This document shows positions 6,826 through 63,189 of a stretch of 64,000 nucleotides of DNA, in pieces. A program made the position numbers and the translations under genes. Below the pieces are notes generated by a model that had not been told where the DNA came from, did no database searches, and saw nothing but the letters and a program-made list of their open reading frames with translations. Location of the stretch: positions 648-64,647 of IMG/VR virus record IMGVR_UViG_3300015245_000006. One strand, 5' to 3'. The DNA is from a virus (lineage: Duplodnaviria > Caudoviricetes). How positions within the stretch are numbered: position 1 is the stretch's first letter; each line of letters begins with the position of its first letter.

Positions 6826-7701
6826 TCACCATCCCATCTTGGTTGCGCAGATCGGGCCGATGCCGGCATAGACCGAATGCTTGTCCGTCAGCACGCGCCC
6901 GCACACGGAACACGCGCCCATGCGCAGGCCATAAGCCTTGGCAGCCTTGTGCGGATCGGCCGCGGCCTCCAAGATGCGGCCCTGCATCGCCTCGGTGCAC
7001 TCGCGGGTGCAGACGAACTTGCCCTCGGTGATTCGCCCAAGATAGGTCGAGCCGCCATTCGTGGTCACGTAGATCGATCCGCACCACTTCGAGTTCGGTC
7101 CCGCCGGGCTGAACTTGAAGCCGTCCAGGATTAGCTTCGGCTTGCGGACGCCGCGCGAGGTGGCGAAGGTGAACGCCTCTTCGACCTTCGAGATGGAGAT
7201 TTCCGGCGCGCAGTCGAGGCGCGTCTGAGCCTCCACCTTGCGCTCGGCAGCCCGCGCAACCCCCTTCCGAATCGCTTCGAGCTGGCCGAACGTCAGCGAT
7301 CCGTACTGATGGAGCTTGCCCTGCAACGAACGAGCAAATTCGTTGGTCTCCAGATTGGCAAGCAGCCAGGCGCACTCAGCCGGATGTTCGGCCTTGAAGG
7401 TCTCAGCCATCGCCAGGGCAGCAGCCGCGGTCGCCTGCGCGATCTTGGCCTTGCGCGCGCCAGTAGCCCCGCGCGACTTGGCGCGGGCCTCCGACGACGT
7501 CTTAAAGGTCAGTTTGCCGGCACCCTTGCAATGGAAGCACCGCTGGTGACCGTGAGACGAGGGCCCATTGTAGCGACCGGTTCCCCGGCACCTCGGGCAA
7601 TCCTCGACGTATTTGGTCTCGTAGCCGTTCGCCGGCTTCACGCGCGGCGCGCCGTCGGCGGTCTTCTCGGCAGCAAAGAGATCATCCAGGGAGTCGTTCA
7701 T
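6826..7701 (-). CDS. zinc-finger / DUF6011 domain protein
   Basis: CPRCRGTG..CFHCKGAG; C-terminal CSVCGRVLTD...GIGPICA. Confidence 0.75.
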   Translation of the reverse strand: MNDSLDDLFAAEKTADGAPRVKPANGYETKYVEDCPRCRGTGRYNGPSSHGHQRCFHCKGAGKLTFKTSSEARAKSRGATGARKAKIAQATAAAALAMAETFKAEHPAECAWLLANLETNEFARSLQGKLHQYGSLTFGQLEAIRKGVARAAERKVEAQTRLDCAPEISISKVEEAFTFATSRGVRKPKLILDGFKFSPAGPNSKWCGSIYVTTNGGSTYLGRITEGKFVCTRECTEAMQGRILEAAADPHKAAKAYGLRMGACSVCGRVLTDKHSVYAGIGPICATKMGW

Positions 7702-7880
7702 TGGGCGGTCTCCTCGCATTGACGGGCCCACACGAGATCGAGCGCGCGGAAAAAGTCCTGCTCGACTTCGCGGAGGATACGGACGTCATTGCTGTTGAGT
7801 TGGCCGAGGCGGCGGTGCTGCGCGAGGCGTGCGCGGCACCAGAAGAGGTGGTTGCGGGCGTCCTGGAGGCGAGCGTTCAT
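7698..7880 (-). CDS. hypothetical protein
   Basis: 60 aa; coupled at both ends. Confidence 0.6.
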   Translation of the reverse strand: MNARLQDARNHLFWCRARLAQHRRLGQLNSNDVRILREVEQDFFRALDLVWARQCEETAQ

Positions 7881-8560: not shown

Positions 8561-9112
8561 ATGCCGCGTAAGTGCAAATGTGGGGCGCCAATCGACAACG
8601 GCATGAACCGTTGTCGGCCGTGTCACGCCGACGCGGAGCGCGCACGGCGCAAGACTTGCCGGCCATCGATTGAAGAGAAACGTAAGAACCGCGCGCGCTC
8701 TGCGGCTCGCGCAGCCAGGAATCGCGGAACCCTAATTCCCCAGCCATGCTCGTGCGGTGCTGAAAGCTCTGAGATGCATCACGAGGACTATTCCAAACCG
8801 TTGGAAGTGAAGTGGTTTTGCCGCAAGTGCCATGTGGCGTTGCATTACCCGGCACATGCTCGAAAGCACAAAAGGATCAAATCGATGAAGTTGGGCGCGT
8901 GGATGGAGCGCAATTTTTGGACGACAGACATGTTTGCCGAGAAAGTTGCTGCCGAACTGAACAGAAGCACTTTTTCGCCTCGGACGGTCGAGGCTTGGAG
9001 GCAAGGCCGCGCAATCCCACGGTACCGGATGCTGCCCGTGATCTCGAAAATCACGAACGGAGAGGTAACGGGGGACGATTTTGTTTCACATGAAACGAAA
9101 GGTACTTTGTAA
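8561..9112 (+). CDS. HNH-like zinc-binding domain fused to Cro-like HTH
   Basis: HHEDYSKPLEVKWFCRKCH; C-terminal SPRTVEAWRQGRAIP...ITNGEVTGDDF; internal ATG 8885 with AAGGA. Confidence 0.7.
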   Translation: MPRKCKCGAPIDNGMNRCRPCHADAERARRKTCRPSIEEKRKNRARSAARAARNRGTLIPQPCSCGAESSEMHHEDYSKPLEVKWFCRKCHVALHYPAHARKHKRIKSMKLGAWMERNFWTTDMFAEKVAAELNRSTFSPRTVEAWRQGRAIPRYRMLPVISKITNGEVTGDDFVSHETKGTL

Positions 9113-9853
9113 ATGGCTGAATTTTCAGCGATTTCCTGGACAGATGCGACGTTCAACCCGTGGATCGGCTGCACCAAGGTCTCGGCGGCGTGCGACGGTT
9201 GCTATGCCGAGGCCGACAACAAGCGCCGGAAGTGGGTCGAGGGCTGGGGCGCTGGCGTCCCGCGGCGCCGGACCACGAAAGCCTATTGGCGGCAACCGCT
9301 CGCCTGGGATCGGCTGTCGGTCCAAAACGGCAGGAAAATGAAGGTCTTCGGCGGCTCGCTGTGCGATTTTCTCGATAACGAGGTCGATCCGATCTGGCGC
9401 GACGACTATTGGGATCTGATCAAGGCCACGCCGAACCTGTGGTGGCTGCTGCTGACCAAGCGAATTGGCAATGCGCGCAAGATGTTGCCGCCGGATTGGG
9501 GCGAGGGCTATCCGAACGTCGTGCTGATGGCGACGCTGGAGAGCCAGGAGGTCTGGGACCGCGACATTGACAAGCTCATGAGCGTGCCGGCGGTACTGCA
9601 CGGCGTGTCGGTGGAACCGATGTTGAGCCATGTCGATATCTGTGGCTGGCAGCCGGACTGGATCATCACCGGGGGCGAGAGCGGGCCGAATCGTCGGCCG
9701 CTCGATATGGATAACGTGCGCTCGATGCGCGACCAATGCGCCAGCGCCGGCATCGCCTTCCACCACAAGCAGAACGGCGGCTTGCGCGGCAAGGACAATG
9801 GCTGCCTGGTCGACGGGGTCGAGCACAAGCACTTTCCTGTGGCGCTGCGGTGA
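9113..9853 (+). CDS. phage Gp37/Gp68 (DUF5131) radical-SAM-like protein
   Basis: WTDATFNPWIGCTKVSAACDGCYAE, LLTKR, SVEPML, WIITGGESG. Confidence 0.9.
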   Translation: MAEFSAISWTDATFNPWIGCTKVSAACDGCYAEADNKRRKWVEGWGAGVPRRRTTKAYWRQPLAWDRLSVQNGRKMKVFGGSLCDFLDNEVDPIWRDDYWDLIKATPNLWWLLLTKRIGNARKMLPPDWGEGYPNVVLMATLESQEVWDRDIDKLMSVPAVLHGVSVEPMLSHVDICGWQPDWIITGGESGPNRRPLDMDNVRSMRDQCASAGIAFHHKQNGGLRGKDNGCLVDGVEHKHFPVALR

Positions 9854-51637: not shown

Positions 51638-54600
51638 GTGGCATTTAGCGATGCCATGATCGGCAGCAACGATTTCGATCCCCAGGCCGCGACCGAGGAT
51701 CTGATCCGCCGCCTATCGGACGAGCCATTGCCGGACACGCTCGATCCGAAAATGCTCAATACCCGGCTGGCGCGCAAGCTCGGCGCCGAGCCGCCGAAAG
51801 AAGTCAAGGCCCCGAAAGCACCGGAGCTTGACTTTTCGGCGCAAGCCATTCCGGCCAGCAATACCGAGCCTGGCAATGTGCTCGATTTCACCTCTCAGGT
51901 ACAACCAACTCCGGTAGCCGCAGCCGCGCCCGGAACGTCGGTTACGGATAAGCTTCAGAGCGTCCACGAGAATATTGATCCCGCGACGGCCGCCAAGGGC
52001 TTCGCGAAGGGTGCCATGCAGGGCACCGGCGGCGTGATGAAGGGCGCCGCGCGCCTTCAGAGCCAGGCGCAACCTTACCTCAATTCCCTCGAGTACGACC
52101 CCATGGGCAACGTCATCGGCCAAAAGCCGGTGCAGCCACCCACTCCAATCGAACAGAACCCGGTTTACCGGGCCGGCAAAGCCGTGGAAGGAGCCGCGCC
52201 AGGCATGACGCCGGCCGAGGAAAGCTCCCTGACCGGCCAAGTCGGCACTATGGCGGGCGGAATTGCGCCTTATGCCGCGGCCACCCTTGTCGGTGGTCCC
52301 GCGCTCGGCATCGCCGCGGGCTTCACCGGCATGGCGGCCGATACCTATGGCAAGGTCTACGAAGAGGCGATCGACAAAGGCGCCGACGAAGCGACCGCAC
52401 AGAAGGCCGCAAGCCGTTCCGCCTTGGTCGCCGGCGCATTGGGTTCGTTGCCGCTCGGAGCGGGTAAGCTCGCCAAAGGGTTGATCGCCAAGGCCGGGAC
52501 CAGCGCGGCAGCATTCGCCGGCCTCGGCGAGGCACAGCATTGGGCGCTGGAGGAAATCGCCAAGAGCTACGATCCGGAACGCGGCTATTCGCTCGAAGCC
52601 AAGCGGCTGATCGCCGAGCTGATCCTCGGCGCCGGCATGGGCGGCCTGCACTATGCCCAGACCGACCACGTCAACATCAACACGTCGAGCGGACCAACGC
52701 CGACGGCAGGATTGCCGCCTCCGGCCGGAGGTAGCCCGCAAGGCGGTGCTGGATATGGTCCGGGAGGACGGCCGAATCCTGGCGCTGGCGCGTGGCCTGG
52801 AGACACAGGTTCATGGTCTCAACCGCCTCCTGGCGGTGGACCGCAGCCGGGACCGGGACCTCAGCCTGGTCCGCAATCGAATGCTGGCGCCGCTGGGGGC
52901 GCGCATCAGCAGCAGGGACCCCAGCCGCCGCCCGGCGGACCTGGCGGCACCCAAAGTGGCCCACGGCCCAATGCAGGCGGTGGCGGCCCGGGATCGCAGC
53001 AGCAGGCCAAACCGCCGCCTGGCGCTGGCGCCGGCAAGGGCCCTGAGTTCACCATGGACGCCCGCATGCGCGCGAAGATGGAGAAGGTGTTCCGGATGTA
53101 CGAGCCGGGCGCCGACGTCTCCGGCATGTCGGATTCCGACCTATTCAACGCCGTCAACGAGCACCTGCGCGACACCTCCAAGACCGGCTACACGGCGAAG
53201 CCGGAGACAGAGCAGGAAGCAGCGGCGCGCGAGGCGACCGCCAAGCGGCGCGATGAGGACGAGATCCTGCGCAAGGCCGGCTGGACCGACGCGCATATCA
53301 ACGCGATGAGCGAGGAGCAGCGCGCGTCCTACATGGCGCGCGCGCAAGGCGCCAAGCCCGAAGCTGCTCAATCGCGGAAAGATCGGACAGATCGGAAAGA
53401 TTCGGAACAGGCGGCCGAGCCAAAAGTCGAAGAGCCAGTGGCCGCGGCCAGTGGTGAAAATCAAAATGCCCCAAAAAACGAGCAGTTAGATATTCACCAG
53501 GGCACGCGCGAGGCGCCGATCGTCCCGAAGACCGCCGACGAGGTGGTCAAGGCACAGGCCGCGGAGCCAACACCAGCCCAGGCCAGCGCCGAGAACTACC
53601 AGCACGCACATGTCGAGCTCCCGCAGTTCGGGCTGACGGGCGACCGCTCGGTGTCGATCGAGACCGGTGTTGGTCAGACCCGCAAGGGCATCGGCGAAGA
53701 TGGGAAGCCCTGGGAAGTCCAGATGCAGGGCGGCGCGTACGGCCGGATCAAGGGCACGAAGGCGGCCGATTTCAAGCACGACGCGGACGGCAACCAGATC
53801 CTTGACAAAGATGGCAATCCGGTCCGTCAGAACCTCGATATCAAGATCGGACCCAATCCGACGAGTCCGTACATCTTCATCGTCGACCAGCACGACCCGA
53901 AGACCGGCAAGTTCGACGAGCACAAGATCCTGGCCGGTTACCGCACGCCGCTCGATGCGCTGCACGGGCATGCGCTCGATTATGGGGATCACGCGGAGGG
54001 CCGAATCGGTCACGTCACCGCGATGGGACCGGAAGAGTTCAAGGCTTGGCTGAAGACGGACACGACAAAGCCGTTGAAGCCGGAGACCGCGCCGCCGACC
54101 TCGATGCGACCTGAAGCCGTCGAGGCCGGCGCGCGTACTCCTCTGACTGAGGCTCCGGGTGAAGGCGCCAATTCCGAAGTCCCGAAGGTCGAACCCAAGG
54201 GCACGGCCAAACCGAAAACAACTACTACGGGTTTAGGTTCCGAGCAGCCGCTCTCGTTGCTGCAATTTATCGCTTCGAAAGGCGGCATTAAGGCACATCC
54301 CGAGTTGGCGGCGATTGGTCTCACCGGTGTCCACAGGATTGTGGTACCGGGCCGGAAGGGCTTTGCAGCCACGGTTTCACCAAAGGGCATGCATCTCGAC
54401 AAGATGCGTGAGGCCGCGCAGGAAGCCGGATACCTGCACGGCGAAGGCGAAAAGACATCGACAATCCGTGACTTGCTGGACGCAATTGATACCGAGCTTC
54501 GGGGCCAGAAGAAGCATGCGGCTGGCGAGGAAGGCACCAAAACTAAGGCTGAAGCCACCCTGGCGGCCGAGCGCGAGGCGCACGAGCAGGAGCGCCATGA

Positions 54601-57600
54601 AGCCAATTACGGCGAATCGGAGCGCTCCGTCGAAATCGAATATCCGGAAAGCCCGCTGGAGGTGCGCGCCGCGGCTGGGCGCCTGATGGTGGACGAGGGC
54701 ATGGACGTGCACGACGCGGTCGAGCGTGCCTCGGTGCAGCTTGCCAACGAGGATGAGCACTACCGCGAGACACCAGACCAAATCATTGATACATTCGGGC
54801 CCGAGGCAGACCATGTTATTCACCGCGCAACAGCACATGAAGATGGCGAAGAGACTGCACGCGCGGTCGAAGCAGGAGCGCGACCCGGTGGCGGCGAAGA
54901 AGCAGAAGGGCTTGGCGCACACGTTCCGGAGACTGGCGCAGCAGGCGGCGAAGAAGCAACCGCCGAAGTAAAACCCACCGTCGAGAAAGGCGCCGACAAC
55001 AAGCCGCAGCTTGTTATATCTGGCGCCGAGAAGATCGGCCAGGGCGCGCAGGCCAAGCGCGCGGCTGCCGCAGCGCTCAAGCCAAAAGTCACACAAAAGG
55101 CCATGGACGTTGGCCTGTTCGGCGACGAGAAGGACCAGGCTGACCTCCTCGACACCATCCGCGCATCGGAGCGCAAGATCGAGAAGGCGCTCGGCAAGGA
55201 TGCCGACAAAGTGGCGCCGGTCGATATCGCTCGCGCCGCCGAAATCATGGCCGAGCACGAAGGCATGGAGCCGGCCACGGCCTTCGGCCAGGCTGTGATC
55301 GAGAATGCGGTCGATCATGACTTCATCACGCCGCAGCAAGCCGAGGAAGCCTATGGCGAAAAAGTCAAAAACATATTGGACGCCGGACGGCAAGGGGCAT
55401 CTGGCGGCGGGACACCTGTTGAGCAAGAACGCGCCGCACCTGGGGAAGAGCGCACCGGTAGTGCAGCGGAAAATGGCGAGCTTCCGGGCGGCGGCGAAGC
55501 TGGCGAAGCAGGCGAGTCCGAACCTGCCCGTGCCGAAGGTGCAGGCCTACCCGAGCCTGCCGGGCCTGAAGCCACCGAGCCAGGAGCCACCGGCGGGGCT
55601 GAAGCCGCTGGGGACGAAGCCGGCAACGCCGCTGAACAAGAGCCTGCCGCCAGCCCTACCGACTACGCCGGCCTGACACCGCTCGATCGCTATAAGGCGG
55701 TCGCAAAGCGCATCGTCGCGGGCGATATCGGCGCCGACGAATTGAAATCGGAGTTCGCGCGCGTCCTGCATAGCGGCGATTACATCAAGGCCGAATTGAA
55801 CAGCCGCACGATCAAGCAACTGGCGCCGCGTGGCGCTGGCAGCATGAGCAAGAAGGAGATTGTCGACAGGATCTACTCGAACATGCTCCAGCGCTTCAAC
55901 GTGCATGGAAGCGTGACGTGGCAGCCGATGGGCCAGGAAACCTTTGAGGGCGCGCTCGCCAATCGAATTGAGAACACCACCGACGCCGATATCCAAGAGG
56001 CGACCGCCAAGCGCCAGGCCGAAAAGGCTGAATGGGAACAGACTTACGGCGATCCGCAGAGCCTCTATCAGTTCGAAGCCTTCATCCGCGCCAAGGGATT
56101 CGGCAAGCTCACGCCGGAGCAGCGCGTTCGCTACGATGAACTGAGGGCCGAAGAGAATCGCCGCGAGCTCGAGAAGGCAAAGGCCGAGCGCAAGAGCGAT
56201 GTCCGCAAGGTCGATACCGAAGTCGGGATGGAACTCGTTGAGACCAAGCACACGCAGAAAGGCCACGACCTGTTCGTGGTCAAGATGGCCGATCGCGTTG
56301 AGGCTGAAACTTACAAGGAACTGAATAGCGCGGCGAAGCGCCTGGGCGGCTACTGGTCGAGCTATACCAAAGGTGGAGCGGTCCCGGGCTTCCAGTTCAA
56401 GACCAAGGATGCCGCCGAGAAGTTTATGGCGGTACGCTACGGCGACGTCAGCCGCAAGGATCTCGTCCAGCACAAGGAAGAGAAGCGGCTTGAAGGCGCG
56501 GTGGACAATCTGCGCGACCAAGCCGAGCGCATGACGGTCGCGGCTGATGAGAAGCTCGGCGCCGATCGGCTGGTGAACACCGCGCGACGGGCCAACATAG
56601 CGGCCGGCGCTGAGGCGAAAGCGAATGCCGATAAGGCGCTCGCGACCAGCATGCGCAACATCGCCGATGCAATCGAGGCTGGCGAGGCGACACATCTGGG
56701 CTGGTTGCGTACGCGCGCCGATGTCGAGATGCTGGATCGGATCACACGCGGTACCAGACGCGATTGGGTCGAGGCGCAAAAGCCGGCAGACTACGGCGAG
56801 CGGCAAAAGCTGGAAGAGAAGCCCATCAGCCAGGAGATGATCGACGCGGCGCATTACCCATATCCCTACGCGCACCGCGAGGAAGTTGTTAAGCTGGCGC
56901 AGGCGGTATCAAAAACTCCCGGTGCCAAGATGGCCGCAGCGCGCCTGATGAAGGAAGCGCGACTTGCCGAGTCGAAGAAGCAATGGCGCGTCGAAGCCAC
57001 ACACCTTGGCACCTTGGACGATTTCAAGACGGTCGGAGAAGCCGCAGCGAAACTTCCAGGCGCCAAGTATGGCGCAAACACCATGCTGGAGTCGTTCAAC
57101 GATTTTAACCGGCTGCGGCGCCTTGGCATCAACGATCTGCCCTCACTGCGCGCGGCCCTGCGTGAGTTCCTGAAATTCCGCGGGAGTGCCGCGAAGGCCG
57201 ATCCGATCAAGGCTGCGGAGCGCGCTCTGGTCGGGCGCAAGATCCCCGGATATTTCCCCACCCCGGATGCTCTGGTCGATCGGATGATTGAGGCGGCCGA
57301 TATCCAACCAGGCATGAGCGTGCTGGAGCCGTCGGCCGGCAAGGGCAACATTGCGGACAAACTCGCGCTCGCGGCTGATCCGGGCGCTTTGTCCGTGATC
57401 GAACCTGTGCCTGATCTGCGCTCGATCCTGAAGGCCAAGGGCCACGACATCGTCGATAGCGATTTCCTGGATCACAAGGAGCGCGGCTTCACCTATGGCG
57501 ACGTCTACCGCGCGCCAGACGGCACGCTTGGTGTCATGCACGGAAGCAACGGCATCGGCGGCAATCGTGTTGGGTTCGAGAGGCTGGACGCCAATGGCGA

Positions 57601-60600
57601 GCCATTCAAGGGAAGCCGCAGCTACTATGATCGCGGCGAATTAGAGCCGGTCGAGAAGCGCGGCTACAACAGCGGCTACGACCGCATCGTGATGAACCCG
57701 CCATTCGAGGATCGGCAGGACGTCGCGCATGTCCAGCACGCTTATGAGATGCTGAAGCCTGGCGGGCGCCTCGTTGCCATCATGTCGGAGGGGCCGTTCT
57801 TCGGGTCCGACAAGCGCGCGAAGGACTTCCGGGATTGGCTGGAGAGCGTCGGCGGCACGAGCGAGAAGAACCCGGAGGGCTCATTCGAAACCAGCGAGCG
57901 CTCCACCGGGGTCAACACCCGTATGGTAGTGATCAACAAACCGGCCGGCGGCTTTTCGGAGATGATAGCGCCGATGCTTGGTGCCAAAGCACAACAATTC
58001 ACGCTCGAACGTGGCCGCGCAACAGGCAATGAACATCTTGTGCTGTATGACAGCGAAGGCAATCTGGTTGCTCAAATCGAAGGTACCAAAAGCGGGTTGC
58101 GGTTCACGCCGGAAATCGAGCGCATGATTCGTGATCCGGATAACGACATTGTTGCTCATCATAATCATCCGATGAATCGTAGTTTCAGCGCAACCGACAT
58201 TGGTTGTCTGGCTGCGCCTGGACTTCGAACCGTGTGGGCACATGGTCACGGTGGCGCCATCTACCGAGTCAACCTGACACCTGAGGCGCGTCGGGCGCTT
58301 CCGATCGACATCAATCAGGCCGCCGGTTCGCTGGCAAAATATTGGTATGCGGCCGAAGGCGGACTGAAAGCATTTATCGACCCGCATTACAAGGCATCCG
58401 GGAAAGACCCGGAGTTTGCGGCAAACTTCGAAGTGGCATGGGCACATCTCATCAACGAGATCATGCGTGAGGCAGGGATCACGGAGTATCAGACCAACTT
58501 CGAAACCGACCCTTCTATTACAGGTCTCCCGAAACTATCTCAGGCCATGGCATATGTGGCCGACACCTTTAGAAAGGGCTTGTTCGGTGACGAAGGACCC
58601 CCGGCCGCTGGGCGGCTTGATCGACGACCCGACTCCATTCGACACCCTGGAAACATGGGAGTCTCATTTGATCGATCTGAAGTCGCAACCCCCGTCAACC
58701 CTGGGCAACGAGGCGCTTCACCACGCGGCAAAAATGATCTCCGAGAAGAAGAAAAAGGACTGAGTCCGGCGCCGACGGAACCGCCCGATCGCAGCGTCAC
58801 CCTTGGCGCCTGGGGCGATCCATCCAAGGTGATCCGCGAGTTCAAGCGCTTCTGGATGTCGACCTTCCAACCCGAACTGGTGAGCGATCGCGCGCTGATG
58901 GCAGATCCGCTGTTCGCGCGCTACAAGTCCGCCAGCGCGCAGGAAAAGGATGCGCTGGTTCGGCAGAGCGAAAAGGAGTGGAATTACTGGAACAAGCGCG
59001 GCGATGCAGAGCGCATTCGCTTTATCGACGACGTCGAGACACGCGTGTTCGGCAATGTCCCAGCCGATCCGGTGCAAGCCGCGATGGCGCGGCGGTATCG
59101 CGCCATGCTTGATGCCAATTGGGCTTTGGAGAAGCGTTATGGTTCGCAGGCGGCGTTTGTCGAAGACTACTTCCCGCACATCTGGGAAAGGCCGGACGAT
59201 TGGCGCGCCTTTGCCGAGGCTCGCAGCGCCCAGATGGGACCAACCTGGTTCCAGAAAAAGCGCACCATCGACTACATTACCGACGGCTTGGCCGCTGGCC
59301 TTAAGCTCAAATATACGAACCCTGTCGACATCGTGGTGCACCGTCTCCTTTCCGGAGTCGATATGCGTCAGCGTATGGAATTGCTCTACCAGCTCAAGAA
59401 AGAAGGGCTTGCTTGGGAGGGGGCTCACGGCGGGGCTCCCTTGGTAGAGCGCGGCTGGCGCGCCATCAATGCGCCGGACCGCAAGCAGTGGGTTATCCAT
59501 CCGGATGTGCAACCACTTTGGAAGAACGCCGTCGAGGCCAAGGGGCTGTGGCAGGACGAAAGCCTCGGCGGCTCGATATTCCGCGGCTGGATGAGCTTCA
59601 AGAACGCCTGGGTCCCGGTGAAGCTCGCGATGAGCGCGTTCCATCCGCTGCACGTCCTGCACATCAACTACTCCAACGGCATGGGCCAGGGCTGGGATAA
59701 CTTGGTCAAGGGCAAGGACCCGGTCGGCGCGCTGAAGGCGGTCGCCAAGGGCTTCATGGGTCCGATGATCGCGGCGCCTGGAGCCACGATCGGGGCTGTG
59801 GCAGGTACGGCTCTGGGTTCTACCATGGGTATGCCGGGCTGGGGTGGCCTGCTTGGCTCGATCGCGGGCTCGGCAGCCTTTGCGGGCGCCAAGCGCGCCG
59901 GCCTGGTGAGTGCGCCAGCCACCCGCGAGGCGCTCGCCAGGAGCGCCTGGAGCACGCGGCCGAACAGCGCTGGCTGGAATAGGCTGACACCCGCACAGCG
60001 CGCCGACGTGGCCCTAATGACCGATGGTGGCTTCTCGCCGCAACTGTCCGAGCAATTGAAGATCGGCGCCAAGCGGCAGCTCGCGGTGGCGTTCCAGAAG
60101 ACCCTGCGCGGCGAGGCCAAGCCCGGCGACTGGCGCAAGATGGTGGCGGCCTCGATGCGGCGCGGCATCGAGGTGTTGCAGGCGCCCATCTTTGAGCGCT
60201 GGATTCCCGAGCTGAAGACCTCGGCGTATCTCCAGGCCGCCTCGGCGCTGTTGAAGCGCCAGCCGCAACTCTTGACCGAGCATGCCGACCGGCGCCTGGC
60301 GCTGCGCGCAATCGCCAAGTCGATCGACAACCGCTTCGGCGAGATGTTCTATGGCACCCTGTTCTGGAACCGATACCTGAAAGACGCCGCAATCGGTTCG
60401 TTCTTGTCGCTCGGCTGGAATCTCGGCTTCGTGCGTGAGTTCGGGGGTGCCGCGATGGAGACGGTGTCGCGCCCGGCCGGGCTTATTCCTGGTCTTAAGC
60501 CAGGCGCACCGCGCAAGCAGATCAGGAGTGCGACGAACAAGATTCCGTTCGTGATCGCCTACGTGGCTTCGGCAGCGCTAATCAACGCCATCATGACCAA

Positions 60601-61489
60601 GCTGTTCTCCGGGGAAAATCCGGAGGGGCTCGACTTCATCTTTGCGCGGATTGGTGGCGAAAACCCCGATGGCTCGGCTCGGCGCGTGACGAACATGTTC
60701 TACCTGCGCGAGGTGCCGATGCTGATGAAGCATGTGCAGGAGCGCGGCGGCAACTTCATGTCCGGAGCCGGCGAGATGGTTTGGAACAAGATGATGTTCG
60801 GGCCCTTCCACGAGCTTCTCAACAACCGCAACTACTACGGCTACAACATCTGGGACGAGAACGCGCCGCTCTATAAGCAGATCTGGCAGGCGATGCGCCA
60901 CGGGCTCTTCGGCGAAAGCAGCCCGATGACCTTCTCTGGTGCGGGACAAGCCGCGCGTTTGTCCGGAAAAGAGTTCCCGAGCGCGAAAGAGGCGATCGAG
61001 CACCCGGACCGGATGATGGACGCCTTGCGCGCGAAAGGTGTGGATATGAGCTTCCTTGGCTTCGGACCGGCTCCCAGCTATGTGGAGAAGTCTGCAATCC
61101 AGAATAGAATCGGTTACCTCTACCGCGAGCACGTGGCGCCGGTGTCCAAGCCACAAGCCGAGGACGAAAACTCAAAGGAGAAGATGGCGGTTCGCACCGC
61201 CATCATGATCGGGAAAAGAGACAAGGACGCCGACATGATCAACCTCGCTCGCGAGCGGGGTCGAGCGATCGGGCTCACGCCAAAGTACATGGCGAATATC
61301 GGTAAGACGCCAACGGATGTGTATCTGTTCTCGCGGCTGCCGGATGAAGACCAGCGCTCGCTTTTGCGCAACGCTTCGGAGGAGGAGCAAAGTCGTTACT
61401 TCAGGCACGCGCACCTGAAGGTCAGGCAGGAGATCAACCGCGCCCGCTACGCGCCACAACCGCCAGCAGCGCAACAACAGGGACTTTGA
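51638..61489 (+). CDS. giant polyvalent internal virion protein (InPase-like, N6-adenine MTase, JAB/MPN-like and structural domains; DarB-like)
   Basis: 3283 aa; YGRIKGT...FDEHK (InPase-like); FPTP, VLEPSAGKG, NPPF (MTase); E..HNHP...S.TD (JAB). Confidence 0.85.
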   Translation: MAFSDAMIGSNDFDPQAATEDLIRRLSDEPLPDTLDPKMLNTRLARKLGAEPPKEVKAPKAPELDFSAQAIPASNTEPGNVLDFTSQVQPTPVAAAAPGTSVTDKLQSVHENIDPATAAKGFAKGAMQGTGGVMKGAARLQSQAQPYLNSLEYDPMGNVIGQKPVQPPTPIEQNPVYRAGKAVEGAAPGMTPAEESSLTGQVGTMAGGIAPYAAATLVGGPALGIAAGFTGMAADTYGKVYEEAIDKGADEATAQKAASRSALVAGALGSLPLGAGKLAKGLIAKAGTSAAAFAGLGEAQHWALEEIAKSYDPERGYSLEAKRLIAELILGAGMGGLHYAQTDHVNINTSSGPTPTAGLPPPAGGSPQGGAGYGPGGRPNPGAGAWPGDTGSWSQPPPGGGPQPGPGPQPGPQSNAGAAGGAHQQQGPQPPPGGPGGTQSGPRPNAGGGGPGSQQQAKPPPGAGAGKGPEFTMDARMRAKMEKVFRMYEPGADVSGMSDSDLFNAVNEHLRDTSKTGYTAKPETEQEAAAREATAKRRDEDEILRKAGWTDAHINAMSEEQRASYMARAQGAKPEAAQSRKDRTDRKDSEQAAEPKVEEPVAAASGENQNAPKNEQLDIHQGTREAPIVPKTADEVVKAQAAEPTPAQASAENYQHAHVELPQFGLTGDRSVSIETGVGQTRKGIGEDGKPWEVQMQGGAYGRIKGTKAADFKHDADGNQILDKDGNPVRQNLDIKIGPNPTSPYIFIVDQHDPKTGKFDEHKILAGYRTPLDALHGHALDYGDHAEGRIGHVTAMGPEEFKAWLKTDTTKPLKPETAPPTSMRPEAVEAGARTPLTEAPGEGANSEVPKVEPKGTAKPKTTTTGLGSEQPLSLLQFIASKGGIKAHPELAAIGLTGVHRIVVPGRKGFAATVSPKGMHLDKMREAAQEAGYLHGEGEKTSTIRDLLDAIDTELRGQKKHAAGEEGTKTKAEATLAAEREAHEQERHEANYGESERSVEIEYPESPLEVRAAAGRLMVDEGMDVHDAVERASVQLANEDEHYRETPDQIIDTFGPEADHVIHRATAHEDGEETARAVEAGARPGGGEEAEGLGAHVPETGAAGGEEATAEVKPTVEKGADNKPQLVISGAEKIGQGAQAKRAAAAALKPKVTQKAMDVGLFGDEKDQADLLDTIRASERKIEKALGKDADKVAPVDIARAAEIMAEHEGMEPATAFGQAVIENAVDHDFITPQQAEEAYGEKVKNILDAGRQGASGGGTPVEQERAAPGEERTGSAAENGELPGGGEAGEAGESEPARAEGAGLPEPAGPEATEPGATGGAEAAGDEAGNAAEQEPAASPTDYAGLTPLDRYKAVAKRIVAGDIGADELKSEFARVLHSGDYIKAELNSRTIKQLAPRGAGSMSKKEIVDRIYSNMLQRFNVHGSVTWQPMGQETFEGALANRIENTTDADIQEATAKRQAEKAEWEQTYGDPQSLYQFEAFIRAKGFGKLTPEQRVRYDELRAEENRRELEKAKAERKSDVRKVDTEVGMELVETKHTQKGHDLFVVKMADRVEAETYKELNSAAKRLGGYWSSYTKGGAVPGFQFKTKDAAEKFMAVRYGDVSRKDLVQHKEEKRLEGAVDNLRDQAERMTVAADEKLGADRLVNTARRANIAAGAEAKANADKALATSMRNIADAIEAGEATHLGWLRTRADVEMLDRITRGTRRDWVEAQKPADYGERQKLEEKPISQEMIDAAHYPYPYAHREEVVKLAQAVSKTPGAKMAAARLMKEARLAESKKQWRVEATHLGTLDDFKTVGEAAAKLPGAKYGANTMLESFNDFNRLRRLGINDLPSLRAALREFLKFRGSAAKADPIKAAERALVGRKIPGYFPTPDALVDRMIEAADIQPGMSVLEPSAGKGNIADKLALAADPGALSVIEPVPDLRSILKAKGHDIVDSDFLDHKERGFTYGDVYRAPDGTLGVMHGSNGIGGNRVGFERLDANGEPFKGSRSYYDRGELEPVEKRGYNSGYDRIVMNPPFEDRQDVAHVQHAYEMLKPGGRLVAIMSEGPFFGSDKRAKDFRDWLESVGGTSEKNPEGSFETSERSTGVNTRMVVINKPAGGFSEMIAPMLGAKAQQFTLERGRATGNEHLVLYDSEGNLVAQIEGTKSGLRFTPEIERMIRDPDNDIVAHHNHPMNRSFSATDIGCLAAPGLRTVWAHGHGGAIYRVNLTPEARRALPIDINQAAGSLAKYWYAAEGGLKAFIDPHYKASGKDPEFAANFEVAWAHLINEIMREAGITEYQTNFETDPSITGLPKLSQAMAYVADTFRKGLFGDEGPPAAGRLDRRPDSIRHPGNMGVSFDRSEVATPVNPGQRGASPRGKNDLREEEKGLSPAPTEPPDRSVTLGAWGDPSKVIREFKRFWMSTFQPELVSDRALMADPLFARYKSASAQEKDALVRQSEKEWNYWNKRGDAERIRFIDDVETRVFGNVPADPVQAAMARRYRAMLDANWALEKRYGSQAAFVEDYFPHIWERPDDWRAFAEARSAQMGPTWFQKKRTIDYITDGLAAGLKLKYTNPVDIVVHRLLSGVDMRQRMELLYQLKKEGLAWEGAHGGAPLVERGWRAINAPDRKQWVIHPDVQPLWKNAVEAKGLWQDESLGGSIFRGWMSFKNAWVPVKLAMSAFHPLHVLHINYSNGMGQGWDNLVKGKDPVGALKAVAKGFMGPMIAAPGATIGAVAGTALGSTMGMPGWGGLLGSIAGSAAFAGAKRAGLVSAPATREALARSAWSTRPNSAGWNRLTPAQRADVALMTDGGFSPQLSEQLKIGAKRQLAVAFQKTLRGEAKPGDWRKMVAASMRRGIEVLQAPIFERWIPELKTSAYLQAASALLKRQPQLLTEHADRRLALRAIAKSIDNRFGEMFYGTLFWNRYLKDAAIGSFLSLGWNLGFVREFGGAAMETVSRPAGLIPGLKPGAPRKQIRSATNKIPFVIAYVASAALINAIMTKLFSGENPEGLDFIFARIGGENPDGSARRVTNMFYLREVPMLMKHVQERGGNFMSGAGEMVWNKMMFGPFHELLNNRNYYGYNIWDENAPLYKQIWQAMRHGLFGESSPMTFSGAGQAARLSGKEFPSAKEAIEHPDRMMDALRAKGVDMSFLGFGPAPSYVEKSAIQNRIGYLYREHVAPVSKPQAEDENSKEKMAVRTAIMIGKRDKDADMINLARERGRAIGLTPKYMANIGKTPTDVYLFSRLPDEDQRSLLRNASEEEQSRYFRHAHLKVRQEINRARYAPQPPAAQQQGL
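54813..54971 (+). CDS. nested +1-frame gene N1 (52 aa, basic helical)
   Basis: CCGAGG-N6-ATG; MLFTAQQHMKMAKRLHARSKQERDPVAAKKQKGLAHTFRRLAQQAAKKQPPK. Confidence 0.65.
   Translation: MLFTAQQHMKMAKRLHARSKQERDPVAAKKQKGLAHTFRRLAQQAAKKQPPK
55353..55676 (+). CDS. nested +1-frame gene N2 (107 aa, basic, Pro-rich tail)
   Basis: CCGAGG-N6-ATG; MAKKSKTYWTPDGKGHLAAGHLL...FRAAAKLAK. Confidence 0.65.
   Translation: MAKKSKTYWTPDGKGHLAAGHLLSKNAPHLGKSAPVVQRKMASFRAAAKLAKQASPNLPVPKVQAYPSLPGLKPPSQEPPAGLKPLGTKPATPLNKSLPPALPTTPA
58587..58763 (+). CDS. nested +1-frame gene N3 (58 aa)
   Basis: AGAAAGGG-N8-GTG; ...LIDDPTPFDTLETWESHLIDLKSQPPSTLGNEALHHAAKMISEKKKKD. Confidence 0.65.
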   Translation: MTKDPRPLGGLIDDPTPFDTLETWESHLIDLKSQPPSTLGNEALHHAAKMISEKKKKD

Positions 61490-62532
61490 TTCCCATGAAG
61501 CTCGATCCGACTATCGTTCGGCGGTTGTGGCCCCGTGCTCCCCAGAAGAAAATCGATGCGATGTGCGCAGTCTCGGAGGAAGTGTTTGCGGAGCATGACA
61601 TCGATGACGTGCATGTCGTGATTCAGTTGATGGCGAATATCAGCCACGAGAATGGAGCCGGCACCATCGTCCGGGAAAGCGGCAACTATCGCGCCGAACG
61701 AATCGTTGAAATCTTCGGAGCCGGAAAGTCATCCGCCAAGGTCACGCCGGAGGAAGCCGTAAAGCTTGCGCACAACGGGCCAGCGCTGTTCGACCGGGTC
61801 TATAACCTGCCTGGCTCGCCCAAGCTTGCGCACGAGCTTGGCAACCACGAGCCTGGCGATGGCAATAAATACCGTGGCGGTGGCGATCTTCAACTCACCG
61901 GCCGCGCCAACTATGAACGGATCGGCAAGATGACCGGCCATCCGGAGATCGTGACCGATCCAAATCTCCTGGTCGATCCTGTCGTCAGCTTTCGTGTTGC
62001 GGTCGCGGAGTTCGTAGCGCTTGGTTGTATCGCACCTGCTTCACGCATGCAGACCACGCGCGTTCGCCGGCTGGTGAATGGCGGCACGAATGGCCTTGCC
62101 GAGGTGACGGTTTGGGTCGGTCACTGGTCGGAAGAGATGCCGGACGTCGAGACGCCGCCGGTGGCGCCGCGCGGTGCGGACACGGACAACAAGAGTCTGA
62201 TGGGCTCCCGGATCATGAAGGGTGTTGTCTCGACCGCGGCCACCACCGCAGTTGCGACCGCTTCGAAGGTTGCCGAGAACGCCAACACCACGAGCCAAAC
62301 GGTCGATGTGTCTTCGGTGCAGGATCACATCCAGAAGGCCAACGACACCATCACCACGATCCAGACCACGGTGGACTCCGGCAAGGTGCTCGTGCAAACG
62401 GTCAAGCCGTTTCTCGGTCTGCCGCCGAACCTTTGGGCCACCATCGCGATTGTCGCATCGATCATTGCGATTGCGACGCTGACCTATACCGGCTGGCAGC
62501 GCTGGGTGAAGCTCCGGGACGAGGGCGTGTGA
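61486..62532 (+). CDS. GH19 (chitinase-like) endolysin with C-terminal TM segment
   Basis: HENGAG, GDGNKYRGGGDLQLTGRANY, VNGGTNGL; alternative start 61495. Confidence 0.85.
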   Translation: MIPMKLDPTIVRRLWPRAPQKKIDAMCAVSEEVFAEHDIDDVHVVIQLMANISHENGAGTIVRESGNYRAERIVEIFGAGKSSAKVTPEEAVKLAHNGPALFDRVYNLPGSPKLAHELGNHEPGDGNKYRGGGDLQLTGRANYERIGKMTGHPEIVTDPNLLVDPVVSFRVAVAEFVALGCIAPASRMQTTRVRRLVNGGTNGLAEVTVWVGHWSEEMPDVETPPVAPRGADTDNKSLMGSRIMKGVVSTAATTAVATASKVAENANTTSQTVDVSSVQDHIQKANDTITTIQTTVDSGKVLVQTVKPFLGLPPNLWATIAIVASIIAIATLTYTGWQRWVKLRDEGV

Positions 62533-63116
62533 TGTTCAACGGCGATCTGATCTGGGGCGTCTCGTGGATCTGGTATCTGATCGGTGTCCTCGGCGTCGGC
62601 GGTACGATCGCGTTTTTCGTGCTCGATGCCGTGGCGGCTGCGGCCTTCTTCAAGGGCATCATCAAGTTCCTTTGGAGCACGCGGATCGGCTGGGCATTGG
62701 TTGCCGGCAGCTTGTGCTTCTTCATTGCCGACACGACGCGGTCGCGCCGTGATGAAGCCGCGTTCGCCGCGCGCACTGCAGCGTTCGAGGAGAAGCAGAA
62801 GCAACGCGATGAACAAATCGCGCAGGATACCCGCACCGCGGTCTTGCAAGAGTTGGCTCAGACCAAGATCGAGGACACTGAAACCGACAAAGACGTGAAG
62901 GAGTTCCACGATGTGCCGCCGGTCCCTGGGTTGGCTAATCCTTTCCGGGTTGGTCCTGATGCTGACCGGCTGCGCGTCATCGCCGGGGCACCTGACCGTG
63001 GATCTAAAGGCGCTCAAGGAGTGCCAAAGGCTCGGAAACCAAGCGTCACTGCCGGACATCACGGAGGATTCCGATTACCGAAACTTATCCGCCGCAGCCC
63101 TGGGCCAACTGAATAA
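62532..63116 (+). CDS. i-spanin (Rz-like)
   Basis: N-terminal TM segments then coiled coil; overlapped by lipoprotein gene. Confidence 0.7.
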   Translation: MFNGDLIWGVSWIWYLIGVLGVGGTIAFFVLDAVAAAAFFKGIIKFLWSTRIGWALVAGSLCFFIADTTRSRRDEAAFAARTAAFEEKQKQRDEQIAQDTRTAVLQELAQTKIEDTETDKDVKEFHDVPPVPGLANPFRVGPDADRLRVIAGAPDRGSKGAQGVPKARKPSVTAGHHGGFRLPKLIRRSPGPTE

Positions 63117-63189
63117 GGCCAACCGCGGCATTGCGGCGCGAACCCGCTGTGAGAACAGCGTCATCGAGAAGTACGGGGCCGCCAAGTGA
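62911..63189 (+). CDS. o-spanin (Rz1-like lipoprotein)
   Basis: lipobox LTGC; +1-frame overlap; AAGGAG RBS. Confidence 0.8.
   Translation: MCRRSLGWLILSGLVLMLTGCASSPGHLTVDLKALKECQRLGNQASLPDITEDSDYRNLSAAALGQLNKANRGIAARTRCENSVIEKYGAAK

What the first reader, a model, noticed from the sequence alone, without database searches (positions are those of the whole stretch)
54813..58763. Three RBS-equipped genes overprinted inside the 3283-aa polyvalent virion protein, each directly behind a domain
Seen: N1 (54813-54971), N2 (55353-55676) and N3 (58587-58763) all lie in the +1 frame of the giant ORF. N1 and N2 have the same initiation context (CCGAGG-N6-ATG); N3 has AGAAAGGG-N8-GTG. Their products read like ordinary small helical proteins. 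Over these intervals the host frame collapses into G/A/E/R/P linker (e.g. GPPAAGRLDRRPDSIRHPG), as expected when GC-rich third positions of a real gene become first positions. The established Rz/Rz1 overlap at 62911-63116 shows the same signature. Inference: 'domain + downstream partner gene' cassettes were captured in frame, so the polyprotein gene carries its own immunity proteins, chaperones or inhibitors. These would be made during late expression but need not be injected with the effector. I know of no description of this arrangement, but could not search.
Basis: partly seen in the sequence, partly recalled or inferred. Interest (0 to 1): 0.9.

Follow-up and report, generated by a model that had tools for sequence, protein, structure and literature searches.

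The report
Hidden partner genes inside giant phage gene
Three small protein genes are written one base out of frame inside the spacers of a giant phage virion-protein gene, each behind "its" domain, and one looks like a built-in cap for the protease-like domain before it, so routine annotation misses real genes here.

Summary
Observation confirmed. N1 (54813-54971), N2 (55353-55676) and N3 (58587-58763) lie in the +1 frame of the 3283-codon ORF 51638-61489. They are the only 3 of 20 alternative-frame ORFs there whose GC3 and substitution pattern follow the nested frame.

Related phage and prophage giant genes keep all three in the same frame:
- N2 in 13 of 13 contigs.
- N1 in 10 loci.
- N3 in 10 loci, with aligned ATG/GTG starts.

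N2 shows nested-frame pN/pS below 1 in 77 of 78 pairs.

N3 belongs to an unnamed small-protein family of 509 clusters. In two bacterial genomes it is a separate gene directly after a MuF head protein that ends in the same JAB-like domain. A complex model places N3 over that domain's metal-site residues (score 0.89, best control 0.00).

N1 and N2 each follow copies of one duplicated helical module. I found no unfused form or binding evidence for them.

The capture-of-cassettes reading is supported for N3 and open for N1 and N2. There are no expression data. My paper searches found no description. This scan has noted similar nested genes in other phage genomes.

The parts
51638..61489 (+). Giant polyvalent (DarB-like) virion/ejection-cluster gene, 3283 codons; host frame of the three nested genes
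   Evidence: ORF and translation. Pfam InPase at aa 647-806, E 6e-24, plus weak methyltransferase hits. PHROG 15406/11358. Upstream neighbours match PHROG 'virion structural protein' and 'DNA ejection protein'; an endolysin lies downstream. Open in all relatives examined.
54230..54811 (+). Host-frame domain D1 (aa 865-1058). Its last ~60 aa (54626-54814) form a helical module homologous to D2
   Evidence: Conserved in 7 relatives (alignment A10) and in 65 viral loci. hhalign of the D1 C-terminal module against D2 gives probability 95.1%, E 3e-8. No Pfam family.
54803..54806 (+). Shine-Dalgarno-like GAGG, 6 nt before the N1 ATG
   Evidence: A core SD 4-mer at spacer 6-8 is present in 10 of 10 N1 loci although the host-frame residues differ. 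Background is 315 of 3264 positions.
54813..54971 (+). N1: nested +1-frame gene, 52 aa, basic
   Evidence: ATG aligned in 10 of 10 loci. Stop at the same or next codon in L001. Window vs L001 identity is 29/52 in the nested frame and 20/50 in the host frame. Nested pN/pS is below 1 in 13 of 15 pairs. 3 database proteins match.
55166..55363 (+). Host-frame module D2 (aa 1177-1242), a paralogue of the D1 C-terminal module
   Evidence: Alignment A12 of 13 sequences. hhalign against A11.
55353..55676 (+). N2: nested +1-frame gene, 107 aa; helical hairpin followed by a proline-rich tail
   Evidence: ATG and an 'MA.KS' start in 13 of 13 viral contigs, all nested +1 in giant ORFs. For residues 1-52, nested pN/pS is below 1 in 77 of 78 pairs and host pN/pS is above 1 in 72 of 78. 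Ser AGC to TCC and Arg CGG to AGG changes. 25 database proteins match. The model has helices 13-26, 28-32 and 34-53 at pLDDT about 80.
57941..58591 (+). Host-frame domain D3 (aa 2102-2318): JAB/MPN-like, with an E...HHNHP...S..D motif
   Evidence: Invariant E31, H73 H74 N75 H76 P77, S83, D86 and AHGH in 10 sequences. Model pLDDT 89.7. Best structural rows are JAMM proteins: 5ld9_A, Z 6.9, rmsd 3.6, 111 aligned. 41% identical over 103 aa to the C-terminal domain of the L060 MuF protein, E 3e-20. That protein has a sub-threshold RadC hit.
58587..58763 (+). N3: nested +1-frame gene, 58 aa (GTG start; an upstream in-frame ATG at 58554 is not conserved)
   Evidence: Start aligned as GTG or ATG in 9 of 9 nested loci. 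TGA at the identical position in L001. Nested +1 in 10 loci with 0 host-frame stops. The family has 509 cluster representatives at E<=0.001. Separate-gene homologues follow D3-like domains in L060 and L062. Complex model with D3.
58764..61489 (+). C-terminal module of the giant protein, about 900 aa, following N3
   Evidence: 82% identical to L001. In all 8 nested relatives compared, 893-1153 aa follow N3, except in L012, which is cut by the locus end. No Pfam or PHROG family.

Best explanation
N1, N2 and N3 are genuine protein-coding genes embedded in the +1 frame of the giant polyvalent virion-protein gene. Each sits at the junction behind one host-frame domain.

Shown: in these three intervals the nested frame carries the selective constraint. 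The host frame there is a low-information G/A/E/R/P spacer whose sequence is largely the shadow of the nested gene.

Inferred: each small protein is made by independent initiation at its own conserved ATG or GTG on the late giant-gene mRNA. N1 has a conserved Shine-Dalgarno motif.

Shown for N3: the unfused state exists. It is a MuF-type head protein ending in a JAB-like domain, followed by a separate N3 gene. This is the layout described for MuF polymorphic toxin plus small immunity ORF.

Inferred: in the giant genes the upstream ORF lost its stop. It now reads through N3 in N3's -1 frame into the next module, so the partner gene stays locked to its domain.

Inferred from a model: N3 binds the JAB-like domain across its metal-site residues. 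It would act as a built-in cap (inhibitor or keeper) in the producing cell.

N1 and N2 follow two copies of one duplicated ~60-aa helical module. By analogy they are probably its small binding partners.
For: Composition and substitution flip only at N1-N3:
- GC by codon position.
- Sliding scan of 3186 aligned codons.
- 3 of 20 alternative-frame ORFs stand out.

Conservation in relatives, always in the +1 frame of a giant ORF:
- N2 in 13 of 13 viral contigs.
- N1 in 10 loci.
- N3 in 10 loci, including Sinorhizobium phage PBC5 orf23 and a Bradyrhizobium macuxiense contig.

Starts:
- N1 ATG in 10/10, N2 ATG in 13/13, N3 ATG in 6/9 and GTG in 3/9.
- The codon is kept while host residues change.
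- An SD 4-mer is present in 10/10 N1, 5/13 N2 and 5/9 N3 loci, against a background of 315/3264.

Selection:
- N2 residues 1-52: nested pN/pS below 1 in 77/78 pairs, host above 1 in 72/78.
- N1 nested below 1 in 13/15 pairs, N3 in 9/10.

N3 is a real protein family. 23 proteins match. 509 representatives match at E<=0.001 and 168 at <=1e-10, mostly 50-110 aa.

Unfused pair. L060 and L062 carry a MuF protein (Pfam Phage_Mu_F 38.8 bits, cut-off 29.6) with a D3-like C-terminus, then an N3-like gene, then an HK97-gp10-like gene.

Linkage. The D3 profile hit 6 distinct genomes in two samples of 401. An N3-like ORF is adjacent in 5 of them. The sixth is cut by a contig end.

Host-frame openness. The host frame is open through N3 in 10/10 fused loci. 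The same frame has a stop inside 9/15 unfused N3 genes.

Complex model of D3 plus N3:
- Score 0.89, best of 3 controls 0.00.
- The mark was reached by 58 of 80 solved complexes and 2 of 110 mismatched pairs. The counts hold only roughly because my own alignments were used.
- Runs agree in at least 97% of contacts, and partner pLDDT is at least 86.
- The interface includes D3 residues 31, 74, 76 and 83-86, which are the invariant motif residues.

Duplicated module: hhalign probability 95.1%, E 3e-8.

Against: - There are no expression or peptide data of any kind.
- Nei-Gojobori counts are not designed for overlapping frames, and N1 and N3 comparisons are near saturation. N1 nested ratios reach 1.27 and 1.50 in 2 of 15 pairs. 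N3 reaches 1.15 in 1 of 10.
- For N3, window vs L001 identity is equal in both frames, 27/58 each.
- A core SD motif is missing in 8/13 N2 and 4/9 N3 loci.
- I found no unfused N1 or N2. The N2 profile hit 0 of 401 genomes, and the tool warns that this empty answer shows nothing.
- N3-like genes occur without D3. Examples are G166, and 15 non-nested loci with no D3, D1, D2 or C-terminal match nearby. In L068 a weak N3-like ORF lies upstream of D3, not downstream.
- D3's fold match is middling: Z 6.9, no chain at Z>=8, no Foldseek hit at E<=0.001. There is no Pfam hit for the window's own D3.
- The binding result is a model's confidence, not a measurement.
Confidence: 0.62

Rival explanations
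1. The nested genes are real and translated, but their products are not inhibitors of the upstream domains. They could be assembly or packaging chaperones for the giant protein (comparable to secretion chaperones left behind in the cell), adaptors, or independent small effectors that merely sit in dispensable spacers.
For: - N3-family genes also occur without the JAB-like domain, in integrative elements next to replication, resolvase and integrase genes.
- N1 and N2 are strongly basic and follow a small helical module, not an enzyme domain.
- The function of D1 and D2 is unknown.
Against: - N3 is adjacent to D3 in 5 of 5 assessable genomes.
- The model puts N3 over the motif residues E31, H74, H76 and S83-D86. 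That placement fits a cap better than a generic chaperone.
Confidence: 0.25
2. The +1-frame stretches are reached by programmed +1 ribosomal frameshifting from the giant ORF. This would give truncated isoforms of the giant protein with N1, N2 or N3 as alternative C-terminal tails, not separate small proteins.
For: - The +1 frame is open for some codons upstream of every start: 2 to 163 codons.
- One database protein (P0055, 137 aa) has the end of D1 and N1 in a single frame.
Against: - A start codon sits at the aligned position in 32 of 32 loci.
- In L020 only 2 codons are open upstream of the N3 start.
- By inspection, the upstream 18-25 nt share no slippery motif across relatives.
- Conservation in the nested frame begins at the start codon.
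- N3 exists as a separate gene with its own ATG.
Confidence: 0.06
3. The ORFs are relics of small genes swallowed during gene fusion and no longer expressed. Their conservation would reflect shared ancestry or constraint on the spacer DNA or RNA.
For: - N3, window vs L001, is equally conserved in both frames.
- No expression data exist.
Against: - Relatives are divergent, with nested pS about 0.5, yet starts, stops and open frames are kept in all loci.
- N2 changes are concentrated at nested third positions: 0.455 against 0.24.
- The host frame in these intervals uses poor codons, with GC3 0.40-0.56.
Confidence: 0.05
4. Chance open frames produced by G+C-rich, Glu/Gly/Ala-rich linker coding.
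For: - 20 alternative-frame ORFs of 50 aa or more lie in this gene.
- GNN-rich linkers raise first-position GC.
Against: - 17 of the 20 ORFs behave as non-coding shadows. Only N1-N3 differ.
- There is cross-genome conservation, and N3 has a family of 509 representatives.
Confidence: 0.02

Closest known systems
MuF polymorphic toxins of temperate phages with a downstream small immunity ORF (Jamet et al. 2017, PMC5576092; listing and 12 passages read)
   Same: The unfused relatives L060 and L062 have a MuF head-protein domain, a variable C-terminal enzyme-like domain (D3-like) and a small ORF immediately downstream. The paper reports such small ORFs after 89.4% of 191 MuF toxin genes, and metallopeptidase domains in 20%.
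   Different: In the window the small gene is not downstream. It lies inside the continuing ORF, in another frame. The window's giant protein has no Pfam MuF hit. The paper's text contains neither 'JAB' nor 'RadC'. Toxicity and neutralisation are untested here.
Embedded and overlapped two-component spanin genes, lambda Rz/Rz1 (Kongari et al. 2018, PMC6139136; listing and start of abstract only)
   Same: A small same-strand gene with its own start lies wholly inside a larger gene in the +1 frame, and the two products are partners. The lambda detail is from my own knowledge.
   Different: Here there are three embedded genes in one 9.8-kb ORF, each at a domain junction. They have no lysis role, and the host frame over them is spacer, not functional domain.
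Polyvalent proteins of phages and conjugative elements, including DarB-like antirestriction proteins (Iyer et al. 2017, PMC5512222; listing and 6 passages read)
   Same: A giant multidomain protein in a phage virion or ejection gene cluster, with InPase (a polyvalent-protein domain family in Pfam) and a methyltransferase. RefSeq calls the PBC5 homologue 'DarB-like antirestriction'.
   Different: That paper's main text has 0 occurrences of 'overlapping', 'frameshift' or 'linker', so nested genes are not part of its description. Its supplements were not seen.
JAB/MPN (JAMM) metallopeptidases, RadC-like JAB domains
   Same: D3 keeps E...HxH...S..D invariant. Its best structural rows are JAMM enzymes.
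   Different: One residue shorter between HxH and S than the RadC motif as I recall it. Scores are sub-threshold. To my knowledge a dedicated small protein cap is not a described feature of the family; I ran no search on this point.

Membership tests
Embedded same-strand overlapping gene (Rz1-in-Rz type) | ORF wholly inside a longer ORF on the same strand in another frame | tested here: met
   N1-N3 lie in the +1 frame of 51638-61489. The same holds in all relatives.
Embedded same-strand overlapping gene (Rz1-in-Rz type) | Own conserved start codon and ribosome-binding site | tested here: met
   Aligned ATG or GTG in 32 of 32 loci. SD 4-mer in 10/10 N1, 5/13 N2 and 5/9 N3 loci, against a 9.7% background. 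This is weaker for N2 and N3.
Embedded same-strand overlapping gene (Rz1-in-Rz type) | Purifying selection on the embedded frame | tested here: met
   N2 in 77/78 pairs, N1 in 13/15 and N3 in 9/10. The method is approximate for overlapping frames.
Embedded same-strand overlapping gene (Rz1-in-Rz type) | Embedded product is made | not testable with these tools
   No ribosome profiling or proteomics is available for this uncultured virus record.
MuF polymorphic toxin plus immunity module | MuF (PF04233-type) head-morphogenesis domain at the N-terminus | tested here: not met
   No Phage_Mu_F hit in the window's giant protein at E<=0.1. It is met in the unfused relatives L060 (38.8 bits) and L062 (33.4 bits; cut-off 29.6).
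MuF polymorphic toxin plus immunity module | Variable C-terminal enzyme domain followed directly by a small ORF | tested here: met
   Met in L060 and L062 as separate genes. In the window the small ORF is nested behind D3.
MuF polymorphic toxin plus immunity module | The domain is toxic and the small protein neutralises it | not testable with these tools
   There is only a binding model.
JAB/MPN (JAMM) metallopeptidase, for domain D3 | Glu plus HxH plus Ser plus Asp metal-site motif | tested here: met
   E31, H74, H76, S83 and D86 are invariant in 10 sequences. The motif definition is recalled, not taken from a call.
JAB/MPN (JAMM) metallopeptidase, for domain D3 | JAB/MPN fold | tested here: inconclusive
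   The top rows are JAMM proteins, but Z is 6.9 at best, with rmsd 3.6 and 111 aligned. No chain reaches Z>=8 and no Foldseek hit reaches E<=0.001.
JAB/MPN (JAMM) metallopeptidase, for domain D3 | Match to a curated family model (PF04002 RadC or similar) | tested here: not met
   No Pfam hit for the window's D3 at E<=5. Homologues L060 and L062 score 16.6 and 14.4 bits, below the cut-off of 22.1.
Polyvalent protein (Iyer et al. 2017) | Several unrelated effector-type domains in one giant polypeptide of a phage or conjugative element | tested here: met
   InPase E 6e-24, a methyltransferase region (PHROG 15406, E 6.8e-211) and JAB-like D3. The gene sits in a virion/ejection gene neighbourhood.
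Programmed +1 frameshift site | Conserved slippery or hungry-codon site just upstream of the new frame | tested here: not met
   By inspection only, no shared motif appears in the 18-25 nt upstream across 32 loci.

The most novel reading that the evidence does not exclude
Giant ejected polyvalent proteins of phages carry, written out of frame in their own spacers, a dedicated small keeper protein for individual effector domains. The keeper is made from the same mRNA and silences the domain in the producing cell. It is left behind at packaging or ejection, so the domain becomes active only in the next host. On this reading the N3 family (509 clusters, unnamed) would be natural proteinaceous caps of JAB/JAMM metallopeptidases. 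Nesting would be the way a toxin-immunity cassette survives being placed in the middle of a polyprotein.
Probability: 0.3. Interest if true: 0.85.

Novelty: new variant of a known kind. Interest (0 to 1): 0.77.

Why it matters
- Standard gene callers forbid genes nested on the same strand. These proteins are therefore missing from phage annotation. The cultured phage PBC5 has an N3 homologue inside orf23 that neither record annotates on that strand.
- If the products are keepers of effector domains, they explain how a phage can safely synthesise a polyprotein full of enzymes aimed at bacterial cells.
- They give a handle for finding the active domains of polyvalent proteins: look for the nested partner.
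- They would define new small-protein inhibitors, here of a JAB-like metallopeptidase.
- The unfused and fused forms side by side show one way overlapping genes can arise. A neighbouring ORF reads through an existing gene, and no new gene has to arise de novo.

Tried and rejected
Chance ORFs. Rejected by the control table of all 20 alternative-frame ORFs and by cross-genome conservation.

Sequencing frameshifts. Rejected because independent assemblies share the layout and their indels keep both frames.

Frameshift isoforms. See rivals.

N1-N2 and N1-N3 homology. hhalign gives probability 0.4% and 2.0%, so paralogy of N1 and N2 is suggested only by the duplicated host module.

Family and collection searches that gave nothing useful:
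- Pfam, PHROG and NCBIfam for N1-N3: nothing credible.
- Phage collection: no N1 or N2 match. N3 matched only PBC5.
- Plasmid collection: no N2 or N3 match. N1 was not searched there.
- Protein Atlas: no usable hit for N3 or N2.
- PDB sequence search with D3: only chance-level rows.
- The giant protein's aa 880-2600 matched only F116-like Pseudomonas and other phages over aa 1334-2115, not the N regions.

D3, D1, D2 and C-terminal queries against 15 non-nested N3 loci found no match at E<=1e-3. That first suggested no unfused pair exists. The genome search later found the pairs.

The N2 profile hit 0 of 401 genomes. The tool says this empty answer shows nothing.

The D1 profile found 65 viral loci, and the N1 HMM hit 8 of them. 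By eye, two more (L097, L098) carry N1-like +1 ORFs and about 12 have +1-frame stops. I counted none of these by-eye cases.

Paper searches and term look-ups in PMC5512222 and PMC5576092 found no description of genes nested in polyvalent proteins. Supplements were closed and not seen, and subscription journals are not covered.

Rows dropped before counts:
- L026, L013, L019, L022, L044 and L069 are the same contig as L001.
- L021, L043 and L092 are the same contig as L012.
- L031 and L032 are near-identical to L030, L035 to L034, and L040 to L039.
- L045-L048 and L051 repeat L014-L018.

Full report
THE OBSERVATION

The window is a complete IMG/VR virus record with terminal repeats. ORF 51638-61489 encodes 3283 aa. 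N1 (54813-54971, 52 aa), N2 (55353-55676, 107 aa) and N3 (58587-58763, 58 aa) all lie in its +1 frame.

Base composition flips in these intervals. Nested-frame GC3 is 0.89/0.83/0.76 and host-frame GC3 is 0.40/0.56/0.41, against 0.73 for the whole gene. The host frame there is 55-72% G/A/E/R/P, against 45% overall.

An open alternative frame is not remarkable in this gene. 20 same-strand ORFs of 50 aa or more lie inside it. In 17 of them the differences to a relative pile up at the host's third codon position. Only the three ORFs holding N1-N3 depart from this pattern.

CONSERVATION

Relative L001 has a 3657-codon giant ORF. It keeps all three nested ORFs.
- The ATG, ATG and GTG starts sit at the aligned positions, although host residues change there (H to N at N1, G to R at N3).
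- The stops are at the same or the next codon.
- In N2 most changes are synonymous in the nested frame, including Ser AGC to TCC and Arg CGG to AGG.
- A sliding scan of 3186 aligned codons flagged only N1-N3 and one marginal window.

Scans of viral contigs with the nested peptides found more relatives.
- N2 occurs in 12 further contigs, all nested +1 in giant ORFs. That makes 13 of 13 with the window.
- N1 occurs in 10 loci.
- N3 is nested in 10 loci. These include orf23 of the cultured Sinorhizobium phage PBC5, which RefSeq names 'DarB-like antirestriction'. They also include a Bradyrhizobium macuxiense contig.
- Start codons align in 32 of 32 loci. N1 has a core Shine-Dalgarno 4-mer at spacer 6-8 in 10 of 10 loci, against a 9.7% background. 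N2 has one in 5 of 13 and N3 in 5 of 9.

Nei-Gojobori counts point the same way.
- For N2 residues 1-52, nested pN/pS is below 1 in 77 of 78 pairs and host-frame pN/pS is above 1 in 72 of 78.
- N1 is below 1 in 13 of 15 pairs and N3 in 9 of 10. These comparisons are near saturation.
- The method is not built for overlapping frames.
- For N3 the window-L001 pair alone is uninformative, at 27/58 identical residues in each frame.

WHAT THE NESTED PRODUCTS ARE

None of the three matches a Pfam, PHROG or NCBIfam family.

N2 matches 25 unnamed database proteins that all begin at the same 'MA.KS' start. Its model is a helical hairpin (residues 13-53, pLDDT about 80) with a disordered proline-rich tail.

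N1 matches three database proteins.

N3 belongs to a large unnamed family. 509 cluster representatives match at E<=0.001, mostly 50-110 aa, and some carry two tandem copies. Many members are not nested. They lie in integrative elements beside integrase, resolvase or replication genes.

THE KEY CONTEXT

In every nested relative examined, N3 follows the homologue of window aa 2102-2318, here called D3.

D3 keeps E31, HHNHP (73-77), S83, D86 and AHGH invariant in 10 sequences. Its model has pLDDT 89.7. The model's best matches are JAMM/MPN enzymes, though only at Z 6.9, rmsd 3.6 and 111 aligned residues, with no Foldseek hit at E<=0.001.

In two bacterial genomes (loci L060, L062) a roughly 500-aa protein has a Pfam Phage_Mu_F domain and a D3-like C-terminus. 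That C-terminus is 41% identical to the window's D3 (E 3e-20) and gives a sub-threshold RadC hit. The protein stops exactly where N3 starts in the giant genes. A separate 55-57 aa N3-like gene follows, and in L060 its ATG overlaps the stop as ATGA. A HK97-gp10-like gene comes next.

This is the layout that Jamet et al. describe for MuF polymorphic toxins with a downstream immunity ORF (PMC5576092, passages read).

The D3 profile hit 6 distinct genomes in two samples of 401. Five of them have an N3-like ORF adjacent: two nested, two separate downstream, and one weak and upstream. The sixth is cut by a contig end.

The frame that the giant ORF uses is free of stops through N3 in 10 of 10 fused loci. 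It is interrupted inside 9 of 15 unfused N3 genes.

So the fused state is best read as a read-through of an existing partner gene.

BINDING

One complex prediction was made, D3 with N3, each as an alignment. The score was 0.89 in three runs (0.88, 0.89, 0.89), against 0.00 for the best of three controls. That mark was reached by 58 of 80 solved complexes and 2 of 110 mismatched pairs. The counts hold only roughly here because my own alignments were used. The runs agree in at least 97% of contacts, and partner pLDDT is at least 86.

The confident interface includes D3 residues 31, 33, 74, 76 and 83-86. These include the invariant E31, H74, H76, S83 and D86. On the N3 side it includes residues 4-19.

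This supports binding and does not show it. It fits a cap over the active site.

N1 AND N2

N1 always follows D1 (aa 865-1058) and N2 always follows D2 (aa 1177-1242).

The last ~60 aa of D1 and D2 are homologous (hhalign probability 95.1%, E 3e-8). A 'helical module plus nested basic ORF' unit has therefore been duplicated. N1 and N2 themselves show no significant profile similarity.

I found no unfused N1 or N2. The D1 domain is widespread, with 65 viral loci, but the N1 HMM hits only 8 of them.

MECHANISM AND RIVALS

I favour independent internal initiation of three small partner proteins from the late giant-gene mRNA, with N3 acting as a keeper or inhibitor of the JAB-like domain.

Frameshift isoforms are unlikely. 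Start codons are conserved at the point where nested-frame conservation begins. Only 2 codons are open upstream of the N3 start in L020. No shared slippery motif is seen. N3 also exists as a free-standing gene.

Silent relics and chance frames are contradicted.

A non-inhibitory partner role, such as a packaging or assembly chaperone, remains a serious alternative, especially for N1 and N2.

NOVELTY

Embedded phage genes (Rz1 in Rz) and toxin-immunity cassettes after MuF proteins are known. Partner genes nested out of frame at internal domain junctions of a polyvalent protein are not described in the papers I could search. Supplements and subscription journals were not seen.

This scan's own earlier notes report similar nested genes in giant virion genes of other phage genomes. 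I read those notes after my analyses were done. They are unchecked here and do not count as evidence.

Noticed in passing
L001:6855-7052, L001 about 7300-7850, and L001:11427-12000: Relative L001 carries extra host-frame domains that the window lacks: a 66-aa insert, and inserts of about 197 and about 190 aa. By eye the two larger ones look ADP-ribosyltransferase-like. Two of the three inserts begin directly after the N1 stop and the N3 stop, so module exchange seems to happen at the 3' edge of the nested genes.
   Followed up: partly
protein P0055 (NCBI, Bradyrhizobium centrolobii AYJ54_36390, 137 aa): This annotated protein joins the last helix of a D1-like domain and an N1-like sequence in one frame. 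It is probably a frameshifted or broken copy of a giant gene. It is the only hint of host-to-nested frame continuity.
   Followed up: no
protein P0046 (99 aa); L028:402-758: These ORFs carry an N1-like C-terminal motif followed by an N3 domain in one frame. N1-like and N3-like units can therefore be adjacent or fused when the modules between them are absent.
   Followed up: no
L024:9651-10165: In an alphaproteobacterial MAG, an N1-like ORF, a degenerate N3 copy and an intact N3-like ORF lie in a row outside any long ORF, near resolvase and integrase genes. This may be a decayed remnant or a free-standing small-gene cluster.
   Followed up: partly
L029:3-458; L034:640-1671: Proteins with two tandem N3-like domains. 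One has them at the end of a 344-codon ORF. The representative search also lists many two-stretch members.
   Followed up: no
L025 (Sinorhizobium phage PBC5, AF448724.1) 8983-9186: An N3 homologue lies in the +1 frame of orf23 and is not annotated. The GenBank record instead annotates several ORFs on the opposite strand inside orf23 (orf24-orf32), which look spurious.
   Followed up: partly
L066 / G197:C28: The D3 match lies in an open frame of 5327 aa in a bacterial genome. This is an even larger giant gene, and it also carries a nested N3.
   Followed up: no
L068:1283-2571: A weak N3-like ORF lies upstream of a D3-containing ORF and overlaps its start. This reverses the usual order.
   Followed up: no
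window 62529-63189: An ORF with N-terminal hydrophobic stretches ends at 63116. It overlaps by 206 nt a 92-aa ORF (62911-63189) with a lipoprotein-like LTGC signal. This could be an overlapped spanin-like pair after the endolysin (61486-62532).
   Followed up: partly
window 52690-53050: A Gly/Pro/Gln-rich low-complexity stretch (giant aa about 350-470). A +2-frame ORF there has GC3 above the host's, but substitutions follow the host frame, so it is not a fourth nested gene.
   Followed up: yes
window 58554: An in-frame ATG lies 11 codons upstream of the N3 GTG. It could give a 69-aa form in this phage only. L001 has a stop in that stretch.
   Followed up: partly
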